Part shown: in pieces, positions 1-17,115 of the stretch | How the letters are laid out: each line of letters begins with the position of its first letter | Numbering within the stretch: the stretch's first letter is position 1 | Assembly: GCF_003334765.1 (NCBI RefSeq) | Contig: NZ_QOWT01000052.1 | Reading direction: 5' to 3' (one strand) | DNA: 17,115 bases | Origin: Escherichia coli | GTDB taxonomy: Bacteria; Pseudomonadota; Gammaproteobacteria; Enterobacterales; Enterobacteriaceae | Position numbers and translations under genes: made by a program | The notes under the pieces: model-generated | Databases searched by the model: none | The model's input: only the letters and a program-made list of their open reading frames with translations | What the model was told of the DNA's origin: nothing

Positions 1-77
1 GTGGCGGCCTCAGTCCGGAACAATTTGAAAACAAGAACCTCGCTTAGGCCTGTGTCCATATTACGTGGGTAGGATCA
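1..77 (-). repeat. Left copy of a perfect 77-bp terminal inverted repeat; reverse complement equals 17039..17115. Likely the terminus of an IS3-family element whose body lies outside the window.
   Basis: Reverse complement of 1..77 is identical to 17039..17115; identity stops at 78 versus 17038. Terminus reads TGATCCTACCCAC...TGGACA, an IS3-family-like end. Confidence 0.6.
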
Positions 78-7499: not shown

Positions 7500-8477
7500 G
7501 TGGATAAGTCGTCCGGTGAGCTGGTGACACTGACACCAAACAATAACAACACCGTACAACCTGTGGCGCTGATGCGTCTGGGCGTCTTTGTACCGACCCT
7601 TAAGTCACTGAAGAACAGTAAAAAAAATACTCTGTCACGCACCGATGCCACGGAAGAACTGACGCGTCTTTCCCTGGCCCGTGCAGAAGGATTCGATAAG
7701 GTTGAGATCACCGGCCCCCGGCTGGATATGGATAACGATTTCAAGACCTGGGTGGGGATCATTCATTCCTTTGCCCGCCATAACGTGATTGGTGACAAAG
7801 TTGAACTGCCTTTTGTCGAGTTTGCAAAACTGTGTGGTATACCCTCAAGCCAGTCATCACGCAGGCTGCGTGAGCGCATCAGCCCTTCCCTGAAACGCAT
7901 TGCCGGTACCGTGATCTCCTTTTCCCGCACCGATGAGAAGCACACCCGGGAATACATCACCCATCTGGTACAGTCAGCCTACTACGATACTGAACGGGAT
8001 ATTGTTCAGTTACAGGCTGATCCCCGCCTTTTTGAACTGTACCAGTTTGACAGAAAGGTCCTTCTTCAGCTTAAGGCGATTAATGCCCTGAAGCGACGGG
8101 AGTCCGCCCAGGCACTTTACACCTTTATAGAGAGCCTGCCCCGGGATCCGGCACCGGTATCGCTGGCGCGGCTGCGTGCACGCCTCAATCTGAAGTCTCC
8201 TGTATTTTCCCAGAACCAGACGGTCAGACGGGCAATGGAGCAGTTGCGCGAGATTGGATATCTTGATTACACGGAGATCCAGCGGGGGCGGACAAAACTC
8301 TTCTGCATTCACTACCGGCGTCCCCGGTTAAAAGCACCGAATGATGAGAGTAAGGAAAATCCGTTGCCACCTTCACCTGCGGAAAAAGTCAGTCCGGAGA
8401 TGGCGGAGAAGCTTGCCCTGCTTGAAAAACTGGGCATCACGCTGGATGACCTGGAAAAACTCTTCAAATCCCGCTGA
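7500..8477 (+). CDS. repA: Plasmid replication initiator RepA, RepFIB-type
   Basis: 325-aa ORF beginning [30 protein letters not shown]..., recalled as IncFIB RepA; flanked on both sides by iteron clusters; GTG start. Confidence 0.8.
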
Positions 8478-8755: not shown

Positions 8756-9496
8756 TTACTTCAGGGGAGGCAGTGTACGCAGGATCTCCGCAGCATCCCG
8801 CCCGTCACCTGTGAAAGGCACTGCCAGCGTGGCAGCCATATCCAGTGCAAACACTCTGGTATAAACCTCCATAGAACGTGGATCCCTGTGACCAGCCAGT
8901 GCCTGGATGACTTTCCGGGGCTGGCGGTGATAGAGCATGTGCATGATATAGCTGTGCCGGAAGGTGTGTGGTGTGACCGGAATCGAAAAGTGCACCCCGT
9001 CAGCTTCGGCCCGCTTCACTGCCTGTTTCAGCCAGTTCCGCATCGTTTCATCCGTCACAGCCCATAACGGTGCACGGCGCCGGGGCCGGGTGGTGATCAT
9101 CCAGCTCTCCATCTGCCTGACATAGCTTATATCCGTCAGCGGGACCAGGCGGACTTCATCTTTTGGAGGGCGCCCGCGTCGCGCACGCACTTTTTCGGAC
9201 AGGATCCGCACAAACGGTCTTACTCCATCCAGGTCAAATGATTCCGGTGTCAGCATCCGGGCTTCGCCAATACGCATTCCGGTATTCCAGAGGGTGGCGA
9301 ACAGCATATGGTGACGCTGATCCGGCATATAGAAAAGAAGGGCACTCACTTCCGGGGCCAGCAGGTAGGCCGGTGTGGCCCCCGTGGAAGTGGCCATTCT
9401 TCTCAGGGAGAGCGCTGTTGCAAAATCCACCCCTGGCGCAATGGGTAACAGGGAGACGCGTTCTGGTGAATTCTGCAGGGGAATGACATTGTTCAT
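8756..9496 (-). CDS. int: Tyrosine site-specific recombinase (phage-integrase family)
   Basis: 246 aa with C-terminal [12 protein letters not shown]...[16 protein letters not shown], matching the R-H-R-Y catalytic region (LGH...Y motif). Confidence 0.8.
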
Positions 9497-9712
9497 GAGT
9501 TATTTTTCACGTAGCACACGCACTGTTTATGGATACAGTTATTCTGACCTGAACGCACGGATCCTTCCACGACAATAAATCGCAGCGCGCGGATCCTTTT
9601 GTTTGCTTATCACGCATTATTGCGGGTAAAACCAAATACGTAAAGGCGCGTTTTGCCGCAGGGATCCTGTCTTAAGCCAGTCATGGCGCGGGCTGAGAGC
9701 TGGTTTGCCGTT

Positions 9713-9858
9713 TTTGGGAGAATTGGGGTAATGCCAGGACAAACAGGATCGAACCAGAAGGGGGAGGGTGCAGAGAAGGAGAGGAAGCGCTACGTGAATT
9801 CTGACCTGGTACACCCCTGTAACCCTGTCTGTTTCCACGTAGCGCAATGCGGTTACTG
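9713..9858 (+). repeat. Repeat A: about 146-bp element, diverged direct copy of repeat B; contains a 10-bp inverted repeat GCGCTACGTG (9787..9796) / CACGTAGCGC (9836..9845)
   Basis: Start TTTGGGAGAATTGGGGTAAT and the core CGCTACGTGAATTCTGACCTGGTACA are near-identical to repeat B. Confidence 0.5.
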
Positions 9859-9859
9859 A

Positions 9860-10109
9860 CTACTGCCAGTTGAGATGACGCCCGGCATCCTGATGCTGAC
9901 TTAAAATACGGATAATAATAATATCTGTATCAGTCTGAATAAAATAAAGCATATGCCGTTCAACGGGCAGTGCGAAGATATCTTCCACCAGTTCAGGCCG
10001 GGGAGTGCCGATATTATTATCACTCATAACCTGAAAAATGCCGGCACCCGTAATACCAGATATCCTCCAGATCCTGACTGGCTTTAGGTGTGAGTTTAAC
10101 GGTTTTCAC
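9860..10109 (-). pseudogene. parE: ParE/RelE-family toxin, apparently frameshifted near 10050..10055
   Basis: GTG start overlaps the parD stop; N-terminal frame reads VKTVKLTPKASQDLEDIWYY.. then stop; a second frame reads ..PELVEDIFALPVERHMLYFIQTDTDIIIIRILSQHQDAGRHL, a ParE-like C-terminus. No ORF of 60 aa or more was called here. Confidence 0.5.
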
Positions 10110-10362
10110 CGGAAGCCCTCGTACCAGCCTTAACTTTTTTCAGGAACGCGTCCTTTTCCCACGCCACAGGTTCGCCGCTGCTCAGGCCTTCTGCCAGTAA
10201 ATCCCGCAGGGCCTGGAGACGTGACTCTGCCTGTTTCTCGCGCAGGAGACGAAGTGACTCGCGAATCACTTCACTCTGAGTACGATAATCACCTGATTCT
10301 ATGAGAGATTCAATGAATTCACGGAGTTCATCTCCGAGATCCACTGTCATTGTTCTGGCCAT
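10096..10362 (-). CDS. parD: ParD-family (ribbon-helix-helix) antitoxin
   Basis: 88 aa, MARTMTVDLGDELREFIESLIESGDYRTQSEVIRESLRLLREKQ...; RBS GAGG upstream; operon with the downstream toxin. Confidence 0.75.
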   Translation of the reverse strand: MARTMTVDLGDELREFIESLIESGDYRTQSEVIRESLRLLREKQAESRLQALRDLLAEGLSSGEPVAWEKDAFLKKVKAGTRASGENR

Positions 10363-10376
10363 ATTAAAGCCTCAAT

Positions 10377-10399
10377 ATTGTAAGTTTAAATCTTACAAT
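10377..10399. promoter_or_regulatory. Palindromic putative operator ATTGTAAG-N7-CTTACAAT, 15 bp upstream of the parD start
   Basis: 8-bp inverted arms around an AT-rich spacer, overlapping a candidate -10 on the minus strand. Confidence 0.45.
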
Positions 10400-10439
10400 C
10401 AGTTTATTCGATACTCAAGGGCGAGTCCAGTACTGAACA

Positions 10440-10577
10440 TTTGGGAGAAATGGGGTAATACCCAAGATAGACCAAAAAGGGAAGGGAGAAGTAAAGAAGA
10501 AGGTTCGCTACGTAAATTCTGACTTGGTACAAACCTCTATAAAAAAGAAATTTTTCATGTAACACATTTGGGTACTG
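10440..10577 (+). repeat. Repeat B: about 138-bp diverged copy of repeat A, flanked by direct 9-bp CCCAGTACT (10427..10435 and 10592..10600)
   Basis: Alignable to repeat A over its whole length at roughly three-quarters identity by eye. Confidence 0.5.
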
Positions 10578-10641
10578 CCTCCCAGTAAAGGGAGACAGCA
10601 TCCCAGTACTATAATTGTACTATATAATATAATGTAGGTGA

Positions 10642-12579
10642 TTAAAATAAATTATCTAATCCGAGCAAACTTTCTTTTTCCTTTTTTATCATGTTGAGAT
10701 GATTTAGTGATTTTAAATAAATATAATTATACATATCTTCAACCAAGTTTTCTAATACTAGGAAAACCCTGTTTTTTACACCTGCCTGTGTTAATAATTT
10801 ATCTATAAGCATACTGTTTTTATCGTTTATGATTCCATCAGATTTTATTTTATCGAGGCCTGAAATTATCTTTAAACATGAAGGTGTCGTAATTGCATTG
10901 TCAAAAATAATGTCATGCAAAGAGTATGTTGATAATTTTTCTATATCAGAGAAGGCGAGGACATTCAGAATGTTATCATTAAATGGACCGATTGATACAT
11001 CGTGCATAGATTCAAGTTTATTGTTATTTGATTTTCTATCTTTACGTAGTTCTTTATTTTGAACAATAACTCTCGCATCACCGATTAGTTTATAATAGAA
11101 ATTTTCAGCTAATGTGCTCGCTGAAAAATTCTCTTCTTTAAAACCAATCTCTTGCATTAACGGAATGATTAACTCTTCCGTTGTATTTTCCATGTCTATG
11201 TGGTTTAAAAAAACCGCAGTATTCAGCATAATAGAGTTATTTTTTAGTTCCTTTACCAAACTCAGCAATATCTTACTTTTTATACTAGATGCGCTGTTTT
11301 TAATGAATTCAGCCGCATGATACTCTTGAATTGTTTTATGGACAAATGTAAATATTTCGGCGCCATCTCTTCTGATCAAACCTGTGACATCGATATAGTC
11401 ATTAATAAGATCTTCGGCAAAAGTATCAGAATAATTGAGCCCCAAAACTTTAAATGATTTTTTAGTGATATTTTTTAAGTTATCCCATGATAATTGGGAT
11501 GAACTTTTTAGCGATATGTAACATAAAGCACAAAATATTTCTTTTGATTCACTAATTGAGAGGTTTGTTTTTCTATGCCTTTTATAGAAATTTTTTGTTT
11601 TATCATGGCCTTCAAATAGTATATTAAATATTCTATTGTAAAATTCTCTTGCATTTTTAGGCATTGAATCGAGATGCTTTTCACAAACACAAAGCAGTAC
11701 AGCAAGAATTGGAGTATTAATTGAAGAAAGCAATTGTTTATTTTTCTTAAGCGCTGCTATAAGTTGATCAGCTGACTCCTTTGGTAAAAAATTACCTATT
11801 ATGGAAAAAACATCTTTCTCTGTTAGTGGTTCAACATGATAATTATTTATTCCTGCAGTAGTGCATATTTCTGTTCCAGGCCGAGACGTTGATATTAATT
11901 GAGTCTGAAAAGAATCATTTAAATGCAATATTTCTTTTAAAATAGTTTCTCTAATATCAGGGGATATTTCATCAAAACCATCTAGTAGTAATATAATTTT
12001 TTTACTTTTCAGTAACCCCTTTAGGTCAGCATTAGTGCAGTTTAATTCGAGAGTAGTTAATGTTTTTATTAAACTATCTTGTATTGAATTGTTTTCCAAG
12101 TTTCTAAGATCAAAAAAGAATGGTATTTTATTAATTTTTGAATTATTACTTAAAATAGCTAGGAATATTTTTCTTAAAATTGTTGTTTTCCCTTGTCCAG
12201 CAGCGCCAATTATATTTAATATATTTTCATTTTGAATACAAAAATCATTATTAATTAAAAGGTCTTCATTTGTACGGTTGTTTTTTACCGTGAGTGGATG
12301 ATAAAATTCATCTATAAAAGCATCATCATTTAAATTATATAAAGTTCTTACTGACAAGTATCTTTTAATACATAAATCAAAATAATGAGTGAAAGTATCT
12401 TTCTTCAATATTTGTTCAATAAGTACTTTCGCATTATCAGTTCCATGTTTCCACTTTTGTGAAACTACTGAATTTAACAATTCGTAAGTTGATTTTGTTA
12501 AAGATTCACTAAAAGTTTCTACCATTTTATTGGTGGCCACAATACCCAGTGCAGCAGCAGATATTGTTAACGGTTCCAT
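10642..12579 (-). CDS. NACHT-domain NTPase (bacterial NACHT / STAND family), 645 aa
   Basis: Walker A GAAGQGKTT; NACHT-type Walker B ILLLDGFDE; sensor-1 ISTSRP; RBS AAGGAG 6 nt upstream of the ATG; AT-rich. Confidence 0.85.
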   Translation of the reverse strand: MEPLTISAAALGIVATNKMVETFSESLTKSTYELLNSVVSQKWKHGTDNAKVLIEQILKKDTFTHYFDLCIKRYLSVRTLYNLNDDAFIDEFYHPLTVKNNRTNEDLLINNDFCIQNENILNIIGAAGQGKTTILRKIFLAILSNNSKINKIPFFFDLRNLENNSIQDSLIKTLTTLELNCTNADLKGLLKSKKIILLLDGFDEISPDIRETILKEILHLNDSFQTQLISTSRPGTEICTTAGINNYHVEPLTEKDVFSIIGNFLPKESADQLIAALKKNKQLLSSINTPILAVLLCVCEKHLDSMPKNAREFYNRIFNILFEGHDKTKNFYKRHRKTNLSISESKEIFCALCYISLKSSSQLSWDNLKNITKKSFKVLGLNYSDTFAEDLINDYIDVTGLIRRDGAEIFTFVHKTIQEYHAAEFIKNSASSIKSKILLSLVKELKNNSIMLNTAVFLNHIDMENTTEELIIPLMQEIGFKEENFSASTLAENFYYKLIGDARVIVQNKELRKDRKSNNNKLESMHDVSIGPFNDNILNVLAFSDIEKLSTYSLHDIIFDNAITTPSCLKIISGLDKIKSDGIINDKNSMLIDKLLTQAGVKNRVFLVLENLVEDMYNYIYLKSLNHLNMIKKEKESLLGLDNLF

Positions 12580-12867
12580 TTTTGCTCCTTCAAAAAATTA
12601 TAAAGTGACTGTCTAAATTCATTTAGAATAAAAAGGATAATTACTGATTCTTGATATGGAAGTTATAAAGTGGTTCATATTAAGAAATTCCAAAACCTAA
12701 AGTGTTTGTAACTATATAAAAAATAGATAATAAATCAAGGTTGTTGACATAAAATTTGACACGACGAACTGAAACTCAATGTGGACTAAGGAAAGCACTT
12801 ACCCTATTGTAAAGCATTGATTTAAAATGTTATTTTTTATATTTAACATAATCTTTGTTATGCGCAC

Positions 12868-13570
12868 TAAGGGTGTAACAGCAAAGTTGTAATGTCCGCC
12901 TTGGGCTAAGTTAAGATGTCCGGCGTGTATAATCAAGTAAGGATTACCATGACGGCTCTCGCAGCGGAGTTTTTCACTTTGGATGAAGTTAACCGACTCA
13001 AGATTATTCAGGACGTCATCGACCGGCGTCTGACAACACAGATGGCAGCGCAGCGGCTTGGTATCTCCGACCGCCAGTGCCGTCGTCTGCTTGCGCGTTA
13101 TCGTGAAGATGGTCCGCTTGGCATGACCAGCCGCGTGTCGAAATCACTCACTGTGCAGTACGACAAAGTGCTTTACCTCATTGAAGACAATGAGTTCAGT
13201 CGTCGGGCGATTGGTAAATACATTGATGTCTGGCATTACCCTGACGGACATAAAGAGCTCCGGCTTAATGGCGTATCAATTCCCTACTCCACCTATGACA
13301 AACTGTCTGAAATCGATCAGGGTGCCATTGTGGACAATAAACGTCTTGGGCGTGCGCTGGAGATGGCGCAACTTGTGCAGGCCGAACGGGATAATAACCG
13401 GTCACAATCAGTGCCATCCGGTGACGGCCCTTCACGCAGGCGCAAAGCCCCTACGACGAAGAAATCCCAGCGTTCTTTGGACCAGGACGATATGTTCAAT
13501 GCACTTGTAAAACTTCAGACACGAGCTGAGGAGATTTTTGGTGAACGCAACCAAAAATGATGTTTTGATA
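12868..13570 (+). mobile_element. ISNCY/IS481-like IS remnant with an internally deleted transposase gene
   Basis: Left-end sequence AAGGGTGTA... is shared with the full copy at about 15675; the gene lacks the catalytic core. Confidence 0.5.
12949..13560 (+). pseudogene. Internally deleted DDE transposase derivative: N-terminal HTH fused in frame to the C-terminal domain (about 280 aa of catalytic core missing)
   Basis: Residues ..NRLKIIQDVIDRRL..GPLGM and ..LTVQYDKVLYLIEDNEFSRRAIGKYIDVWHYPDGHKELRLNG.. align to both ends of the 415-aa transposase at 15794..17041. Extended -10 TGTATAAT and RBS AAGGA precede the ATG at 12949. Confidence 0.6.
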
Positions 13571-13611
13571 CGAACATTTCAATGGTCAATAGATAGAGTG
13601 GAGATGGGCAG

Positions 13612-14658
13612 ATGATAACGTTTTCTATGGATGAAAGTGGCTATACGGGTTATGACTTACTCCACAAAGAGCAAAAATTCCAAGGCGCGTCATCAATATT
13701 AATAAACCATGATGACGCCAGTCGTCTGATAAAAGAATATTTCCCCAAACTTCAAGCCGATGAATTGAAGTACAGCTCGCTGAAAAGAAGAGATTCCAAC
13801 CGCAAGCCATTATTTGAATTGCAAAAGCATCTCTTATCTAATTACCCATGTATAACATGCGTAGGTGATAAACGCTTTTTACTAATTCTTATGTTCATCG
13901 ATTATGCTGTTGAACCATTCTATTATGATTTTGGGATTAATCTTTATGAGGATGGCGGTAACTTCTCAATGGCATCAATGGTGTATTACGTTGGACCAGC
14001 GTATTATGGCTCTGCCTTTGATGATGTTCTGCTTCAGTTTCAAAATGCTATGAAAGAAAAAACATTAGATTCAGTGAGTTTGCTAATAAGCAAAATAAGG
14101 AGGCTTGACTGGCAAAGGTTAAAAGAGTTTTTTGGTCCTTTGGCATTTAACCACCCAGATTGTATTGATGCCATCATGACTGATGGAATTAGCACTGATG
14201 CCTCATTTACTATTTTAAATGCATTAATTTCTCGCACGGAAATGATGTCCTCTGGAGAGTATGCAATTGAGCATGATCGTTCTAAAAATCTGCTAACTTA
14301 CAATGAACGCCTTAACTTTTTGATCAATTGTGATAAGGAAGGAGAGTTTAAACATTCCGAGATAGCAACTATCTCATTCCCACTAAACCTTAAAAAAGTC
14401 TATCAAATTGATTCGAAAGAAAGCCCAAGCGTGCAATTGTGTGATGTTCTTATAGGTGCATGTATTGAATCAGTTTATCAATTAATGGACTCTAAGGTAC
14501 TCAATCAAAATTCCGTTCTTTCACTTTACCAAGATAGCCAGTTAATACATTTCATACCTGATATAGATTTTGAAGGACAGAAAAAATTTAGGAAAGGCAG
14601 TCAAAGTGAGGAGTATCTTACGTTTATTCAAAATGAAATCTACTCTAGTAAACTTTAA
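13612..14658 (+). CDS. DUF3800-like protein (uncharacterised), 348 aa
   Basis: N-terminal FSMDESGYTG (DESG motif) and C-terminal VQLCDVLIGA (QxxD-like motif), as recalled for DUF3800; RBS GGAG; AT-rich. Confidence 0.6.
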   Translation: MITFSMDESGYTGYDLLHKEQKFQGASSILINHDDASRLIKEYFPKLQADELKYSSLKRRDSNRKPLFELQKHLLSNYPCITCVGDKRFLLILMFIDYAVEPFYYDFGINLYEDGGNFSMASMVYYVGPAYYGSAFDDVLLQFQNAMKEKTLDSVSLLISKIRRLDWQRLKEFFGPLAFNHPDCIDAIMTDGISTDASFTILNALISRTEMMSSGEYAIEHDRSKNLLTYNERLNFLINCDKEGEFKHSEIATISFPLNLKKVYQIDSKESPSVQLCDVLIGACIESVYQLMDSKVLNQNSVLSLYQDSQLIHFIPDIDFEGQKKFRKGSQSEEYLTFIQNEIYSSKL

Positions 14659-14663
14659 AAAAA

Positions 14664-14684
14664 GGCTCTGAAAATCAGAACCTT
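14664..14684. terminator. Imperfect hairpin between the convergent genes (possible bidirectional terminator)
   Basis: GGCTCTGA-AAA-TCAGAACC stem with one mismatch, A-run upstream. Confidence 0.3.
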
Positions 14685-14893
14685 ATCGCACCACCAGACA
14701 TAGAAATGATTCGTGAAGCTATTTTATACAGAACCAAAAACACAAAGGCCAAAACAGTCATGATATCTAATACCATAGGCATTACCTCCACTAACGTATT
14801 CAAGACAAACGCTTTATACCCGCATCAGTCCGTAGACAGGCATCTGTTCGTCAGTTTGTGGATTTCTATGGGTGGTGAGACCGGGTAGAGACA

Positions 14894-15538
14894 TCATACC
14901 TGTTTTCTTAGAAGCTGGTCAATATAGCTGATCGTGTGAAATTCACGTTCGATTTTCATACAAACATTTGGCAACTGTTCGATAAGAAAGTTTTCATCGA
15001 AGCGATCTAGAAGGTACGTGAGGGTAATAGTATCAATTTTATTCAATTTTCTATGTAAAACTGAAGAACGCCTCACAAAATCGTTTTTCCTTAACTCTTG
15101 AATAACATCGATCAAAATAGGGTTGAATAATTCTTTTTCTGGAAAGGACTTGTAAATTTTCGAATCAATAATTTGAGAAGGATCTAAGCGGTTAATTAAA
15201 TTATTACTGCTAACTATGTAGCACTTATCAATCATCAAACCTTCCGTTTTGCAACGGTCTAAATCACAAGCGTTTATTATACATTCTTTAAATACAACAT
15301 GTCGCAGGCTCCCGCCTCTAAAAAGGACTCCTCTTAATAAAGAGGATTGGAAAAGACTGCCAGTAAAGTTACACCATTTCAATGAAGCACCAATAAAAGA
15401 CGTGTTCGTGAATTTTGACTGAAAAAAATTTGAATGGTAACTGTGTGTCTTATTGAAATTTTTATTTATAAAATTCCTACTCGCAACATCACGATTATTG
15501 TAGCTGAAAGCATTTTTGCTCTTCTTATTCCTTGCCAT
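14894..15538 (-). CDS. Pentapeptide-repeat protein: N-terminal pentapeptide-repeat region plus a C-terminal domain of unknown function, 214 aa
   Basis: Residues about 20..95 show a 5-residue periodicity (RNFIN KNFNK .. SNFFQ SKFTN TSFIG ASLKW CNFTG SLFQS SLLRG VLFRG GSLRH VVFKE) with F/L at the centre position. Confidence 0.6.
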   Translation of the reverse strand: MARNKKSKNAFSYNNRDVASRNFINKNFNKTHSYHSNFFQSKFTNTSFIGASLKWCNFTGSLFQSSLLRGVLFRGGSLRHVVFKECIINACDLDRCKTEGLMIDKCYIVSSNNLINRLDPSQIIDSKIYKSFPEKELFNPILIDVIQELRKNDFVRRSSVLHRKLNKIDTITLTYLLDRFDENFLIEQLPNVCMKIEREFHTISYIDQLLRKQV

Positions 15539-15674: not shown

Positions 15675-17038
15675 AAAGGGTGTAGAGGCTCAATGCTAAT
15701 GTCTATTTGTGGCTCATTGGAATGTCCAGGCTATAGTTTCTCAGATCCCTATGTCTAGACAACGACTCACTTTTTCCTGATGAGGAGTTTTCTATGGCTA
15801 TAAATGACGCCGGAATGTTCACCGTGAAAGAAATCAATCGCCTCAAAATCCTTCAGGATGTCATCGATCGCAATATCCGTCCTGGACAGGCTGCCGAAAT
15901 GCTGGTCATCACGCCACGTCATTGCAGCCGTCTGCTCAAACGTTATCGCCAGTATGGGCCGCTTGGCATGAACAACCAGAGTCGTGGCCGCACTGGTAAC
16001 CGTCTGTTGCCAGCGTCACTGACAGATCAGGCACTCAGTATAATCCGGGAGCACTACCGTGATTTTGGCCCCACGCTAGCGCGGGAAAAGCTGGAGGAAG
16101 TTCACGGTCTGGTCCTTGGAAAGGAAACCATCCGACGTCTCATGATAAAGGCCGGACTCTGGATTCCCCGCAGACAACGCGCACCGAAAATTCATCAGCC
16201 TCGTTACCGGCGTCCTTGTACTGGCGAGCTGATACAAATTGATGGCTGCGACCACCACTGGTTTGAAAACCGGGGTCGACCCTGTACTGCCCTGGTCTAT
16301 GTTGACGATGCCACCAGTCGCCTGATGCACCTGCTGTTTGTGAAATCTGAGTCCACATTTACCTATTTTGAAGCTACACGTGGCTATATCGAGAAATACG
16401 GTAAACCGATGATCCTCTACAGCGATAAAGCCAGCATATTCAGAGTCAATAATAAGCACGCCACCACCGGCCCCGGCGAAACCCAGTTTGCCAGGGCCAT
16501 GCGCTGCCTTAATATTACTCCTTTGTGTGCTGAAACCAGCCAGGCAAAAGGCCGCGTTGAACGTGCTCATTTGACACTTCAGGACCGACTCGTTAAGGAG
16601 CTCAGGCTTAAGGGGATCTGTACAATAGAAGCGGCCAATGCATTTGCAGAAGAATACATGGCGGATTATAACCGTCGCTTTGCCAAAGAACCCTTGCATG
16701 ATTTTAACGCGCACCGGCCGCTGGCATTAGACGATGACCTTGATGCAGAATTTACCTGGCGAGAGCCTCGCCGGGTATCAAAAAATCTGACTGTACAATA
16801 CGATAAAATGCTCTATCTGATTGAGGACAACGAGTACAGTCGAAGAGCCATCGGCAAGTATATTGATGTCTGGCATTATCCTGACGGACATAAGGAGCTG
16901 CGACTAAATGGCGTGCTGCTGCCCTACTCCACCTATGACCGGCTTTCTGAGGTTGATCCCGTCGCCATTGTAGATAACAAGAGACTTGGCCATGTGTTGG
17001 ATGTTGCCCGTCAGGTCCAGAGAAAACGGGACAATAAT
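15675..17038 (+). mobile_element. ISNCY/IS481-like insertion sequence, 3'-truncated by insertion of the terminal-repeat element
   Basis: Left-end homology with the 12868 copy; the transposase reading frame is cut at 17038/17039. Confidence 0.6.
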
Positions 17039-17041
17039 TGA
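15794..17041 (+). CDS. DDE transposase (integrase-core type, ISNCY/IS481-like), 415 aa, C-terminally truncated by about 45 aa relative to the homolog at 12949..13560
   Basis: N-terminal HTH, central core (..QIDGCDHHWF..YVDDATSRLM..) and C-terminal DVWHYPDGHKELRLNG; RBS GAGGAG. The stop codon TGA is supplied by the first bases of the 77-bp repeat. Confidence 0.8.
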   Translation: MAINDAGMFTVKEINRLKILQDVIDRNIRPGQAAEMLVITPRHCSRLLKRYRQYGPLGMNNQSRGRTGNRLLPASLTDQALSIIREHYRDFGPTLAREKLEEVHGLVLGKETIRRLMIKAGLWIPRRQRAPKIHQPRYRRPCTGELIQIDGCDHHWFENRGRPCTALVYVDDATSRLMHLLFVKSESTFTYFEATRGYIEKYGKPMILYSDKASIFRVNNKHATTGPGETQFARAMRCLNITPLCAETSQAKGRVERAHLTLQDRLVKELRLKGICTIEAANAFAEEYMADYNRRFAKEPLHDFNAHRPLALDDDLDAEFTWREPRRVSKNLTVQYDKMLYLIEDNEYSRRAIGKYIDVWHYPDGHKELRLNGVLLPYSTYDRLSEVDPVAIVDNKRLGHVLDVARQVQRKRDNN

Positions 17042-17115
17042 TCCTACCCACGTAATATGGACACAGGCCTAAGCGAGGTTCTTGTTTTCAAATTGTTCCG
17101 GACTGAGGCCGCCAC
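17039..17115 (+). repeat. Right copy of the 77-bp terminal inverted repeat (IS3-family-like terminus)
   Basis: Identical to the reverse complement of 1..77. Confidence 0.6.

What the first reader, a model, noticed from the sequence alone, without database searches (positions are those of the whole stretch)
9500..10600. Family of about 140-bp repeats bracketing parDE, with a partial third copy at the int start
Repeats A (9713..9858) and B (10440..10577) are diverged direct copies flanking the toxin-antitoxin locus. A carries a perfect 10-bp inverted repeat (GCGCTACGTG / CACGTAGCGC) around a 39-nt loop, while in B the stem is degraded. B is flanked by a direct 9-bp CCCAGTACT. The core motifs TTTTCACGTAGC and ATTCTGACCTG recur at 9503..9551, directly abutting the int start codon. 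This could be a miniature mobile element, a recombinase or regulator binding-site family, or a structured sRNA; I cannot distinguish these from sequence alone.
Basis: seen in the sequence. Interest (0 to 1): 0.5.

Follow-up and report, generated by a model that had tools for sequence, protein, structure and literature searches.

The report
Resolvase-linked repeat units flanking parDE
The two ~140-bp repeats around the parDE toxin-antitoxin genes are real; each carries one copy of a widespread 57-bp plasmid palindrome that sits next to plasmid recombinase genes, and they are most likely cis-acting sites of the neighbouring ResD-type resolvase where plasmid modules get exchanged, although no experiment shows this.

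Summary
The window is an E. coli IncFIA/FIB plasmid with the order RepFIB repB, int, repeat A, parE (frameshifted), parD, repeat B, NACHT gene.

Each repeat has three parts: a nearly invariant 27-mer (TTTGGGAGAAWTGGGGTAATRCC+AGGA), a fast-evolving purine-rich linker of about 47 nt, and a 57-59-bp palindrome (16-17-nt arms, fixed 25-nt spacer).

- **Third copy.** It is a degenerate but correctly spaced palindrome with the int start codon in its spacer.
- **Family.** The palindrome has no Rfam match and I found no description of it. It hits about 3,000 PLSDB plasmids, usually once each. It lies within 40 nt of, or overlaps, the 5' ends of two unrelated recombinase families (ResD-like and true Cre homologues).
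- **Int.** Int is 47% identical to the F resolvase ResD.
- **27-mer.** It sits 216-218 nt (in some variants 274 nt) from the int start in 111 units.
- **Recombination traces.** parDE is present or absent exactly between two 27-mers. Mosaic plasmids have breakpoints inside the 17-bp arm.

The sRNA, terminator, REP, MITE, lox, dif and attC readings were tested or considered, and none was supported. The best reading is a set of rfsF-like recombination or operator sites of Int (confidence about 0.45). The binding protein and the crossover point remain unproven.

The parts
8756..9496 (-). int: 246-aa tyrosine recombinase of the ResD/Rsd plasmid-resolvase family, with almost no N-terminal core-binding domain
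   Evidence: 47% identity to F ResD over 258 aligned positions, E=3e-68. Only the catalytic domain (residues ~40-222) matches Xer/IntI models.
9458..9516 (+). Site I: degenerate member of the 57-59-bp palindrome family overlapping the int start. The left-arm remnant lies in int codons 8-11, the right arm lies upstream of the ATG, and the ATG (9494-9496) lies in the spacer.
   Evidence: Arm-to-arm geometry is preserved. The same layout is conserved in 72-77 of 101 distinct FIB units. Related ResD-like genes encode QNSRS from the arm.
9541..9551 (+). Half-site relic ATTCTGACCTG, identical to the inner left arm plus spacer start of palindrome A
   Evidence: 3 matches, 0.35 expected; conserved in most FIB units.
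9552..9712 (.). int-proximal cis region: short conserved islands (three GGATCC at 9559-9564, 9591-9596 and 9662-9667; GGGTAAAACCAAAT; AAGCCAG) separated by variable spacers
   Evidence: Alignment of 20 diverged variants; no conserved RNA fold, 0 covarying pairs.
9713..9739 (+). 27-mer A (TTTGGGAGAATTGGGGTAATGCC+AGGA): nearly invariant block at a fixed distance from int; boundary between conserved backbone and variable DNA
   Evidence: 216-218 or 274 nt from the int start in 111 units with Int 73-100% identical. Information content drops from ~1.9 to <0.55 bits just to its right.
9740..9786 (+). Purine-rich linker A: keeps purine richness and a GATC, but the sequence evolves fast
   Evidence: 62-64% identity between lineages whose flanks are 84-95% identical.
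9787..9845 (-). Palindrome A: intact family member. Arms at 9788-9803 and 9829-9844; the family's asymmetric spacer motif CAGGGG is at positions 27-32 when read on the minus strand.
9860..10109 (-). parE toxin gene, frameshifted here (two ORFs, 9860-10027 and 10020-10109)
   Evidence: annotated as a frameshifted RelE/ParE gene in the sibling plasmid.
10096..10362 (-). parD antitoxin gene
   Evidence: TIGR02606, E=4e-24.
10440..10462 (+). 27-mer B (TTTGGGAGAAATGGGGTAATACC): second copy, always linked to the parD side. Many plasmids lose homology to the window at this point.
   Evidence: Hits H9-H25 end at query 2060-2063, which is window 10459-10462.
10463..10504 (+). Purine-rich linker B
10505..10563 (-). 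Palindrome B: degenerate. The left arm is intact (10506-10521, 1 mismatch). The right arm (TTTTCATGTAAC) and the spacer motif have decayed.

Best explanation
A and B are two paralogous copies of a composite cis-acting unit that belongs to the RepFIB-linked ResD-family resolvase Int. The unit is a 27-mer, a purine-rich linker and a 57-bp palindrome. A third, degenerate palindrome covers the int start.

Proposed mechanism (inferred):
- Int, possibly with a partner protein, recognises the two 16-17-bp arms (consensus GCGCTACGTGAATTCTG). The arms are held about 41 bp apart, centre to centre.
- At the int start this would give autoregulation, as reported for F ResD.
- At the intact palindrome A, and perhaps at the 27-mer, it would give site-specific recombination. 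That would resolve plasmid multimers and occasionally join different plasmids. The DNA on the far side of the site would then be swapped as a module.
- parDE lies between two such units. It was either inserted there or is lost from there by recombination between the two 27-mers.
- B is a decaying copy. A and B have different spacers, so they no longer recombine and parDE stays in place.

Shown: the anatomy, the family, the linkage to recombinase genes, the present/absent alleles and the breakpoints inside the arms.
Inferred: which protein binds, where strands are cut, and that Int is the enzyme.
For: - Int is 47% identical to the F resolvase ResD.
- The 27-mer is 216-218 or 274 nt from the int start in 111 units, with Int 73-100% identical.
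- Palindrome arms are conserved in sequence and the spacer length is fixed at 25 nt in 56 distinct copies from many genera.
- One arm lies inside the first codons of ResD-like genes of IncFIB and IncL/M plasmids and of Pluralibacter, Photorhabdus, Serratia and Hafnia.
- The canonical F/IncI/IncR ResD operon has a conserved upstream palindrome of similar build: CACAACATGTGGTG-N20-CACTATATGTTGTG. It shares GCRCWACRTG with the family arm.
- Occupied versus empty alleles: L004 is int-27mer-[A body-parE-parD]-27mer-X, whereas L010, L140 and L154 are int-27mer-X.
- Recombinants with a breakpoint in the 17-bp left arm: L187 vs L005 has linker 98% and spacer 56% identical; L187 vs F has linker 63% and spacer 100%. 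By my own knowledge, 17 bp is below the ~23-27 bp needed for efficient RecA recombination.
- The literature reports rfsF/ResD sites as points of module switching in IncI1 and IncR plasmids (PMC8004404, PMC9412624).
Against: - A 25-bp spacer is far longer than the 6-8 bp overlap of every characterised tyrosine-recombinase core site.
- The 27-mer has no dyad symmetry.
- The same palindrome sits 36-37 nt upstream of true Cre homologues. These have their own lox/pox-like site 80-200 nt further out and show no similarity to Int. Int therefore cannot be the only partner.
- 33 of 50 non-FIB copies have no recombinase gene within 400 bp, and some lie on megabase-size, probably chromosomal, contigs.
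- Many FIB plasmids have no intact palindrome beyond the 27-mer.
- Conserved islands are also the only places where homologous recombination between diverged alleles could cross over.
- No cassette array longer than two units was seen, and parDE was never found away from int.
- There are no experimental data.
Confidence: 0.45

Rival explanations
1. The palindrome is an operator for some other sequence-specific DNA-binding protein, from the host or from the plasmid, and not for Int. That protein would control promoters, including those of plasmid resolvase genes. A and B would then be extra copies of this operator and the recombination traces would be incidental.
For: Arms are conserved in sequence rather than merely complementary, at a fixed spacing of about four helical turns, with an A-tract in the spacer. 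The element lies 22-46 nt upstream of the start codons of unrelated genes: Cre-like at 36-37 nt, a Rahnella cupin gene at 45-46 nt, a ResD-like gene at 22 nt and a LysR gene at 57 nt. It has the same placement in front of two unrelated recombinase families.
Against: No candidate regulator was identified, and I could recall no known operator consensus that matches it. Many copies lie at 3' ends of genes or between convergent genes. A and B lie downstream of minus-strand genes, not at promoters. This reading does not explain breakpoints inside the arms.
Confidence: 0.2
2. The palindrome is a dispersed REP- or MITE-like repeat that spreads or persists on its own. It would be a structural DNA or RNA hairpin, and it happens to have landed next to int and around parDE.
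For: It has terminal inverted repeats with a variable interior and a fixed length. Several copies occur per locus in Tatumella (4 in 6 kb), Erwinia, Rahnella, Yersinia and Cedecea. Some copies are on megabase-size contigs.
Against: In E. coli there are 289 plasmid hits against 1 chromosomal hit, with a median of one per genome. In PLSDB it is mostly one per record. No target-site duplication is visible in the flanks. No Y1/RAYT or other transposase lies between paired copies. Orthologous copies persist across four Rahnella species. The position relative to recombinase genes is fixed.
Confidence: 0.15
3. A and B are decaying relics of a local duplication, or of the ancient joining of two plasmid lineages, and have no present function.
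For: B's right arm and spacer motif are degraded and it does not fold. The linker evolves fast. Many plasmids lack an intact palindrome beyond the 27-mer.
Against: The 27-mer is nearly invariant across Int variants down to 73% identity. Palindrome A's arms are perfectly conserved in lineages whose flanks have diverged 15-40%. The two-copy arrangement around parDE is kept in a Klebsiella plasmid whose second copy is only 68% like A.
Confidence: 0.12
4. The unit encodes a structured small RNA, or is the terminator or 3'-UTR element of the upstream minus-strand genes.
For: Hairpin A is stable, with z down to -4.3. On the minus strand it starts about 14 nt after the parE stop and is followed by a CU-rich tract. 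The plus strand is rich in GGA motifs.
Against: There are no Rfam matches, even at E<=5. No T-run enrichment appears on either side of 57 family members, and there is no consistent orientation relative to flanking genes. There is little compensatory change among the less diverged family members. No promoter was predicted. The small ORFs on either strand are not conserved.
Confidence: 0.06

Closest known systems
ResD / rfsF multimer-resolution system of F (also IncI1 and IncR; Rsd/crs of Salmonella virulence plasmids)
   Same: The recombinase is homologous (47% identity). It lies next to a replicon and a type II toxin-antitoxin pair (ccdAB-resD in F, parDE-int here). A cis region rich in inverted repeats lies upstream. 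The conserved F/IncI/IncR palindrome has 14-bp arms and a 20-bp spacer, and its arm shares GCRCWACRTG with the family arm. The site marks the boundary where plasmid modules are exchanged.
   Different: The arm sequence, spacer length (25 vs 20 nt) and asymmetric CAGGGG motif differ. The F-type region has no copy of this palindrome or of the 27-mer. The unit is duplicated around the toxin-antitoxin genes. I could not obtain the published rfsF sequence, so its equivalence to the F palindrome is my inference.
Cre/loxP-type systems (Dre/rox, Panto/pox)
   Same: A tyrosine recombinase gene has a palindromic element just upstream. The Pantoea neighbours of the palindrome are true Cre homologues (E=7e-77) with rox/pox-like 34-bp sites nearby (PMC4957104).
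   Different: The build is 16-25-16 rather than 13-8-13. At the Cre-like loci where a lox/pox-like site was found, it is a separate sequence 80-200 nt away, so the palindrome is not the crossover site there. Int shows no similarity to Cre.
Integron attC / attI cassette system and Acinetobacter pdif modules
   Same: A gene module (here a toxin-antitoxin pair) is bracketed by two copies of an imperfect-palindrome site next to a tyrosine recombinase gene. A further site abuts the recombinase start. Occupied and empty alleles exist.
   Different: There is no IntI-type integrase, no R/L box consensus and no XerC/D binding motifs. Only one cassette type was seen, never more than two units, and never away from int.
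REP/BIME and MITE repeats
   Same: It is a short intergenic palindrome with conserved ends, and several copies occur in some Erwiniaceae and Yersiniaceae loci.
   Different: It is plasmid-restricted and about single-copy in E. coli. GTAG lies inside the stem rather than 5' of it. No RAYT gene and no target duplication were found.

Membership tests
ResD/rfsF-type plasmid resolution system | Adjacent ResD-family tyrosine recombinase | tested here: met
   blastp of Int vs F ResD: 47% identity, E=3e-68. The IncL/M orthologue is named resD in the literature.
ResD/rfsF-type plasmid resolution system | Cis site with inverted repeats close to the recombinase operon, related to rfsF | tested here: inconclusive
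   Palindromes are present at the int start and 290 nt upstream. Their build resembles the conserved F/IncI/IncR palindrome and they share GCRCWACRTG.
ResD/rfsF-type plasmid resolution system | recA-independent recombination at the site, dependent on the recombinase | not testable with these tools
   Only indirect traces are available: breakpoints within the 17-bp arm and occupied/empty alleles.
ResD/rfsF-type plasmid resolution system | Site is a boundary of module exchange between related plasmids | tested here: met
   parallels in PMC8004404 and PMC9412624.
lox-type site (Cre family) | Two 13-15-bp inverted arms separated by an 8-bp spacer | tested here: not met
   16-17-bp arms and a 25-bp spacer in 56 copies.
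lox-type site (Cre family) | Cognate Cre-family recombinase | tested here: not met
   Int has no similarity to the Cre homologue. Where found, the lox/pox-like site of a Cre-like gene is a separate sequence.
Integron (attI/attC) | IntI integrase with its extra domain, and attC sites with R''/L''-L'/R' boxes (RYYYAAC...GTTRRRY) | tested here: not met
   Int is 246 aa. It scores 50.8 bits against an integron-integrase cut-off of 265, over the C-terminal 65 residues only. The arms do not carry the box consensus.
Xer dif/cer/pdif site | 11-bp XerC and XerD arms (GGTGCGCATAA / TTATGTTAAAT type) around a 6-8-bp centre | tested here: not met
   By inspection of the consensus profile, no such arms are present.
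REP/BIME | Many chromosomal intergenic copies per genome | tested here: not met
   E. coli: 289 plasmid places to 1 chromosomal place, median 1 per genome. This remains open for Erwiniaceae.
REP/BIME | Associated RAYT (Y1 transposase) flanked by inverted copies | tested here: not met
   The inverted pair in Erwinia persicina flanks a small 127-aa ORF of unknown function and an IS-like remnant, and none of the ORFs looked like a Y1 transposase by inspection (no family search was run).
MITE | Terminal inverted repeats plus target-site duplication | tested here: inconclusive
   Terminal inverted repeats are present. The flanks continue the palindrome (GGCGT...ACGCC) rather than forming direct repeats. 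The only direct repeat is CCAGTACT around B, which comparative data attribute to the parDE module.
Known RNA family (Rfam 15) | Match to a covariance model | tested here: not met
   No hit at gathering thresholds over the whole window. Only chance-level hits at E<=5.
Intrinsic terminator | GC-rich hairpin followed by a T-run, oriented with the upstream gene | tested here: not met
   The mean T count after the stem is 3.9 against 4.1 on the other strand in 57 copies, and there is no consistent orientation.

The most novel reading that the evidence does not exclude
The 57-bp palindrome is a new kind of tyrosine-recombinase site with long arms and a long spacer. It might be used as a folded single strand or as a bent duplex. 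Minimal ResD-like recombinases, which lack a core-binding domain, would use it to exchange gene modules such as parDE between plasmids. That would be an integron- or dif-module-like cassette mechanism operating on IncF, IncL/M, IncX and large Klebsiella and Pantoea plasmids.
Probability: 0.1. Interest if true: 0.8.

Novelty: new variant of a known kind. Interest (0 to 1): 0.5.

Why it matters
RepFIB-linked 'int' and the IncL/M 'resD' genes are carried by thousands of clinically important resistance and virulence plasmids. In the literature I could search, no cis site is described for them. This analysis gives concrete candidate sites and shows that variable cargo is joined to the conserved replicon there. 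If Int acts at these sites, three things follow:
- It explains how virulence, defence and toxin-antitoxin modules are swapped next to RepFIB.
- It gives a test system for a tyrosine recombinase with almost no core-binding domain.
- It explains a 57-bp palindrome found in about 3,000 sequenced plasmids, which also precedes Cre-like recombinases of interest as genome-engineering tools.

Tried and rejected
- **Rfam.** Gathering thresholds on the whole window and E-value mode on two regions gave nothing.
- **tRNA scan.** None found.
- **Small ORFs in the repeats.** The minus-strand 76-aa and 65-aa ORFs and the plus-strand 42-aa ORF behind a GGAG motif are not conserved. The open frames are explained by pyrimidine richness, and they match no NCBIfam family.
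- **Terminator idea.** No T-run enrichment and no consistent orientation. The promoter/terminator scan was at chance level.
- **Conserved RNA structure between int and the 27-mer.** None found.
- **REP/RAYT idea.** No Y1 transposase lies between paired copies.
- **The palindrome as the lox site of the Pantoea Cre homologues.** Rejected, because separate rox/pox-like sites lie nearby.
- **F-type rfsF region.** It contains no copy of this palindrome.
- **Phage collection.** Only weak partial hits.
- **Literature.** Searches for the arm sequences and for the F palindrome sequence found nothing relevant. A search for rsd/crs returned only unrelated papers. R64 (AP005147) is not in the collections.
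- **My first impression of an absolutely sharp junction after the 27-mer.** I weakened this. Several 'foreign' right-hand sequences are very diverged homologues of the same unit.
Full report
**Context.** The window is identical to part of E. coli plasmid pB16EC0481-1 (CP088797.1, IncFIA/IncFIB). The local order is:
- RepFIB initiator repB, 7500-8477 (+), followed by iterons
- int, 8756-9496 (-)
- repeat A
- parE, 9860-10109 (-), frameshifted
- parD, 10096-10362 (-)
- repeat B
- a NACHT-domain gene, 10642-12579 (-).

Int is a 246-aa tyrosine recombinase. Only its catalytic domain matches Xer/IntI models. It is 47% identical (E=3e-68) to ResD, the multimer resolvase of F, which is encoded on the same plasmid behind ccdAB.

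**Observation check.** The repeats are real. The repeat finder reports 69 nt at 75% and 23 nt at 91% identity in the same register, and blastn gives E=9e-12. The 10-bp perfect inverted repeat in A, the decay of the stem in B, and the recurrence of ATTCTGACCTG and TTTTCACGTAGC next to the int start are all present. The direct repeat around B is 8 bp exact (CCAGTACT).

**Anatomy.** I compared the window with 11 related plasmid loci and with 134 units recovered from metagenomes by an exact scan for the 22-mer core. Each repeat is composite:
1. A nearly invariant 27-mer, TTTGGGAGAAWTGGGGTAATRCC followed by AGGA.
2. A linker of about 47 nt that stays purine-rich and keeps one GATC, but otherwise diverges quickly.
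3. A palindrome of 57-59 bp.

The 27-mer lies 216-218 nt (in some variants 274 nt) from the int start codon in 111 units whose Int proteins range from 73% to 100% identity. Second copies always have the parD-side left flank (CCAGTACTGAACA) and always have int about 1 kb away.

**The palindrome is a family.** An exact scan of one genome per species for the left arm, plus relaxed matching, gave 57 distinct copies, 56 in a later re-extraction.
- The arms are 16-17 nt, with consensus GCGCTACGTGAATTCTG. The spacer is 25 nt in almost every copy. An asymmetric CAGGGG sits at spacer positions 27-32, usually preceded by an A-rich run.
- Window A fits this profile on the minus strand, including CAGGGG. 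B keeps one arm only.
- The 'third copy' at the int start keeps the arm-to-arm geometry but has a degenerate left arm. The int ATG lies in its spacer.
- A consensus query hits 3,044 PLSDB records: Klebsiella 2,058, Escherichia 465, Enterobacter 146, Pantoea 124. Most records have one place.
- In complete E. coli genomes there are 289 places on plasmids and 1 on a chromosome.
- Copies occur in IncFIB, IncL/M (pOXA-48 type), IncX4 and large Klebsiella FIB(K)/HI1B plasmids.
- In Pantoea, Rahnella, Erwinia, Tatumella, Buttiauxella and others, some copies lie on megabase-size contigs and some loci hold two to four copies.
- Rfam has no matching family. Full-text searches for the arm sequences found nothing relevant.

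**Link to recombinase genes.** Of 50 copies outside the FIB set, 17 lie within about 40 nt of the start of a tyrosine recombinase gene.
- Sixteen of these genes are true Cre homologues (E=7e-77 to Cre structures). They are 57-100% identical to each other, and the palindrome usually lies 36-37 nt upstream of the ATG.
- Several of those Cre-like loci carry a separate 34-bp rox/pox-like site 80-200 nt further out. This is the kind of site shown experimentally to be recombined by the Pantoea enzyme Panto (PMC4957104). The palindrome is therefore not the Cre-type crossover site.
- In ResD-like genes of IncFIB and IncL/M plasmids and of Pluralibacter, Photorhabdus, Serratia and Hafnia, one arm lies inside codons 8-13 and encodes QNSRS. 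In FIB it is degenerate and encodes QNSPE.
- Int and the Cre homologue show no pairwise similarity. Two unrelated recombinase families therefore carry the same element at their 5' ends.

**What kind of constraint.** Among members within four mismatches of the consensus, the arms are conserved in sequence. One-sided changes are not compensated (for example pair 6-54: 8 G-T and 5 A-C, no G-C). More diverged members show mirrored multi-base changes in both arms: pO157 has CGCTATGTAG/CCACATAGCG, L219 has GCAAAATCTGG in both arms, and the second Klebsiella copy has ACGCGA/TCGCGT. Sequence conservation, fixed spacing of about four helical turns and an A-tract fit two protein-binding half-sites on one face of bent DNA better than they fit a purely structural RNA hairpin. 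There is no T-run enrichment and no consistent orientation to neighbouring genes, so a terminator role is not supported. The 216 nt between int and the 27-mer consist of short conserved islands (three GGATCC, GGGTAAAACCAAAT, AAGCCAG) with variable spacers. They show no conserved fold, which again looks like a protein-DNA assembly region.

**Traces of recombination.**
- Many plasmids lose homology to the window at 10459-10462, the end of 27-mer B. More than 2,000 E. coli plasmids share only the first 40 nt of a query that starts 13 nt before 27-mer A.
- Information content drops sharply after the 27-mer. Some apparently foreign right-hand sequences are very diverged homologues of the same unit, so this boundary is partly a change in constraint.
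- A clean occupied/empty pair exists. L004 reads int-27mer-[linker, palindrome A, parE, parD]-27mer-X, whereas L010, L140 and L154 read int-27mer-X with the same X.
- Block-wise identities show recombinants with a breakpoint inside the 17-bp left arm. L187 matches L005 in the linker (98%) but not in the spacer or downstream (56%, 52%). It matches F in the spacer and downstream (100%, 92%) but not in the linker (63%). L004 vs L005 gives linker 98% and spacer 56%. L151 vs L004 breaks just after the right arm (85% then 50%).
- By my own knowledge, 17 bp of identity is below the length needed for efficient RecA recombination, so these joints favour a site-specific or microhomology process.
- The literature describes rfsF/ResD sites as the points where IncI1 and IncR plasmids switch gene sets (PMC8004404, PMC9412624).
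- The canonical F/IncI/IncR ResD operon has its own conserved upstream palindrome, with 14-bp arms and a 20-bp spacer (L136 505-552). Its arm shares GCRCWACRTG with the family arm. I take this to be rfsF, but I could not retrieve the published sequence.

**Most likely mechanism.** The units are cis sites of the RepFIB-linked ResD-type resolvase.
- Site I would allow autoregulation.
- The intact palindrome A, and possibly the 27-mer, would be where multimers are resolved and where rare intermolecular events swap the cargo beyond the site.
- parDE lies between two units. This resembles ccdAB between rfsF and resD in F. It is gained or lost by recombination between the two 27-mers.
- B is a decaying copy with a different spacer, which would prevent A×B deletion.

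The anatomy, the distribution, the linkage and the breakpoints are shown. The binding protein, the cleavage positions and Int dependence are inferred. The main difficulties are the 25-bp spacer, the asymmetric 27-mer, the presence of the same palindrome before Cre homologues that have their own lox/pox-like site, and the many copies without a recombinase nearby. An operator for another protein is therefore a serious rival. A REP/MITE-like repeat or a functionless relic cannot be excluded.

**Novelty.** ResD/rfsF-type systems and their role in plasmid mosaicism are known. In the sources I could search, I found no description of this palindrome family, its fixed geometry, its placement at the 5' ends of two recombinase families, the 27-mer, or the duplicated unit around parDE. 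For IncL/M, resD is only called a probable resolvase and no site is given. I rate it a new variant of a known kind, of moderate interest.

Noticed in passing
window 1-77 and 17039-17115: The two ends of the window are a perfect 77-nt inverted repeat, 16,961 nt apart. The right arm coincides with the end of an IS3-family element and the left arm lies in a gene annotated as an AAA ATPase. This may be an IS-mediated inversion or a composite structure.
   Followed up: no
window 9860-10109: parE is split into two overlapping ORFs (a frameshift) while parD is intact. The sibling plasmid is annotated the same way. The toxin is probably inactive in this plasmid.
   Followed up: partly
L102 7731-7787, L060 553-609, L089 1283-1339, L044 5750-5806, L098 8631-8687 and others: The 57-bp palindrome lies 36-37 nt upstream of true Cre homologues in Pantoea-group replicons. 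Where one was found, a rox/pox-like 34-bp site lies 80-200 nt further out. The layout is therefore lox site, palindrome, cre.
   Followed up: partly
L057 4454-4510, 6359-6415, 7361-7417, 10126-10183: Tatumella ptyseos has four same-strand copies of the palindrome within 6 kb of a 328-kb contig. Small genes lie between them (by eye, a ParE-like toxin, a NUDIX protein and a chitin-binding protein). Two copies share extended flanks. It looks array-like, and no recombinase gene was found within 400 bp of any copy.
   Followed up: partly
L132 3001-3043, L032 7775-7814, L043 1961-2000, L071 8597, L086 261: ResD-like recombinases of IncL/M (pOXA-48 type) and of several other genera start with ...FPLQ(ISQ)NSRS. 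QNSRS is encoded by the palindrome arm CAGAATTCACGTAGC. The N-terminal peptide may be conserved because of the DNA element.
   Followed up: partly
L136 505-552 (same plasmid, 33 kb region), L137, L138: The F-type ccdAB-resD operon and its IncI and IncR relatives share an upstream palindrome, CACAACATGTGGTG-N20-CACTATATGTTGTG, followed by about 150 conserved nt. This is probably rfsF.
   Followed up: partly
window 10427-10434 and 10603-10610: An 8-bp direct repeat, CCAGTACT, brackets repeat B. The first copy belongs to the conserved parD-side flank in other plasmids, so a target duplication is unlikely but not excluded.
   Followed up: partly
window 9559-9564, 9591-9596, 9662-9667, 9751-9754: There are three GGATCC sites in the int-upstream region and a conserved GATC in the purine-rich linker. 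Together they form a cluster of Dam sites next to the RepFIB iterons.
   Followed up: no
window 10642-15538: The cargo beyond repeat B looks like a defence island: a NACHT gene (weak match to antiphage EruA), a DUF3800 gene and a pentapeptide-repeat gene. Related plasmids carry Abi and DUF3800 genes on the other side of RepFIB.
   Followed up: no
window 13072-13397 vs 15917-15977 and 16770-17037: Diverged (74-75%) direct repeats of 61 and 268 nt suggest two related IS-like or helix-turn-helix transposase genes.
   Followed up: no
window 9617-9847 (-) and equivalents in other plasmids: RefSeq annotates the pyrimidine-rich strand of the unit variously as 'hypothetical protein', 'transcriptional regulator' or a partial 'serine/threonine protein kinase'. 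These look like spurious ORF calls in stop-poor sequence.
   Followed up: partly
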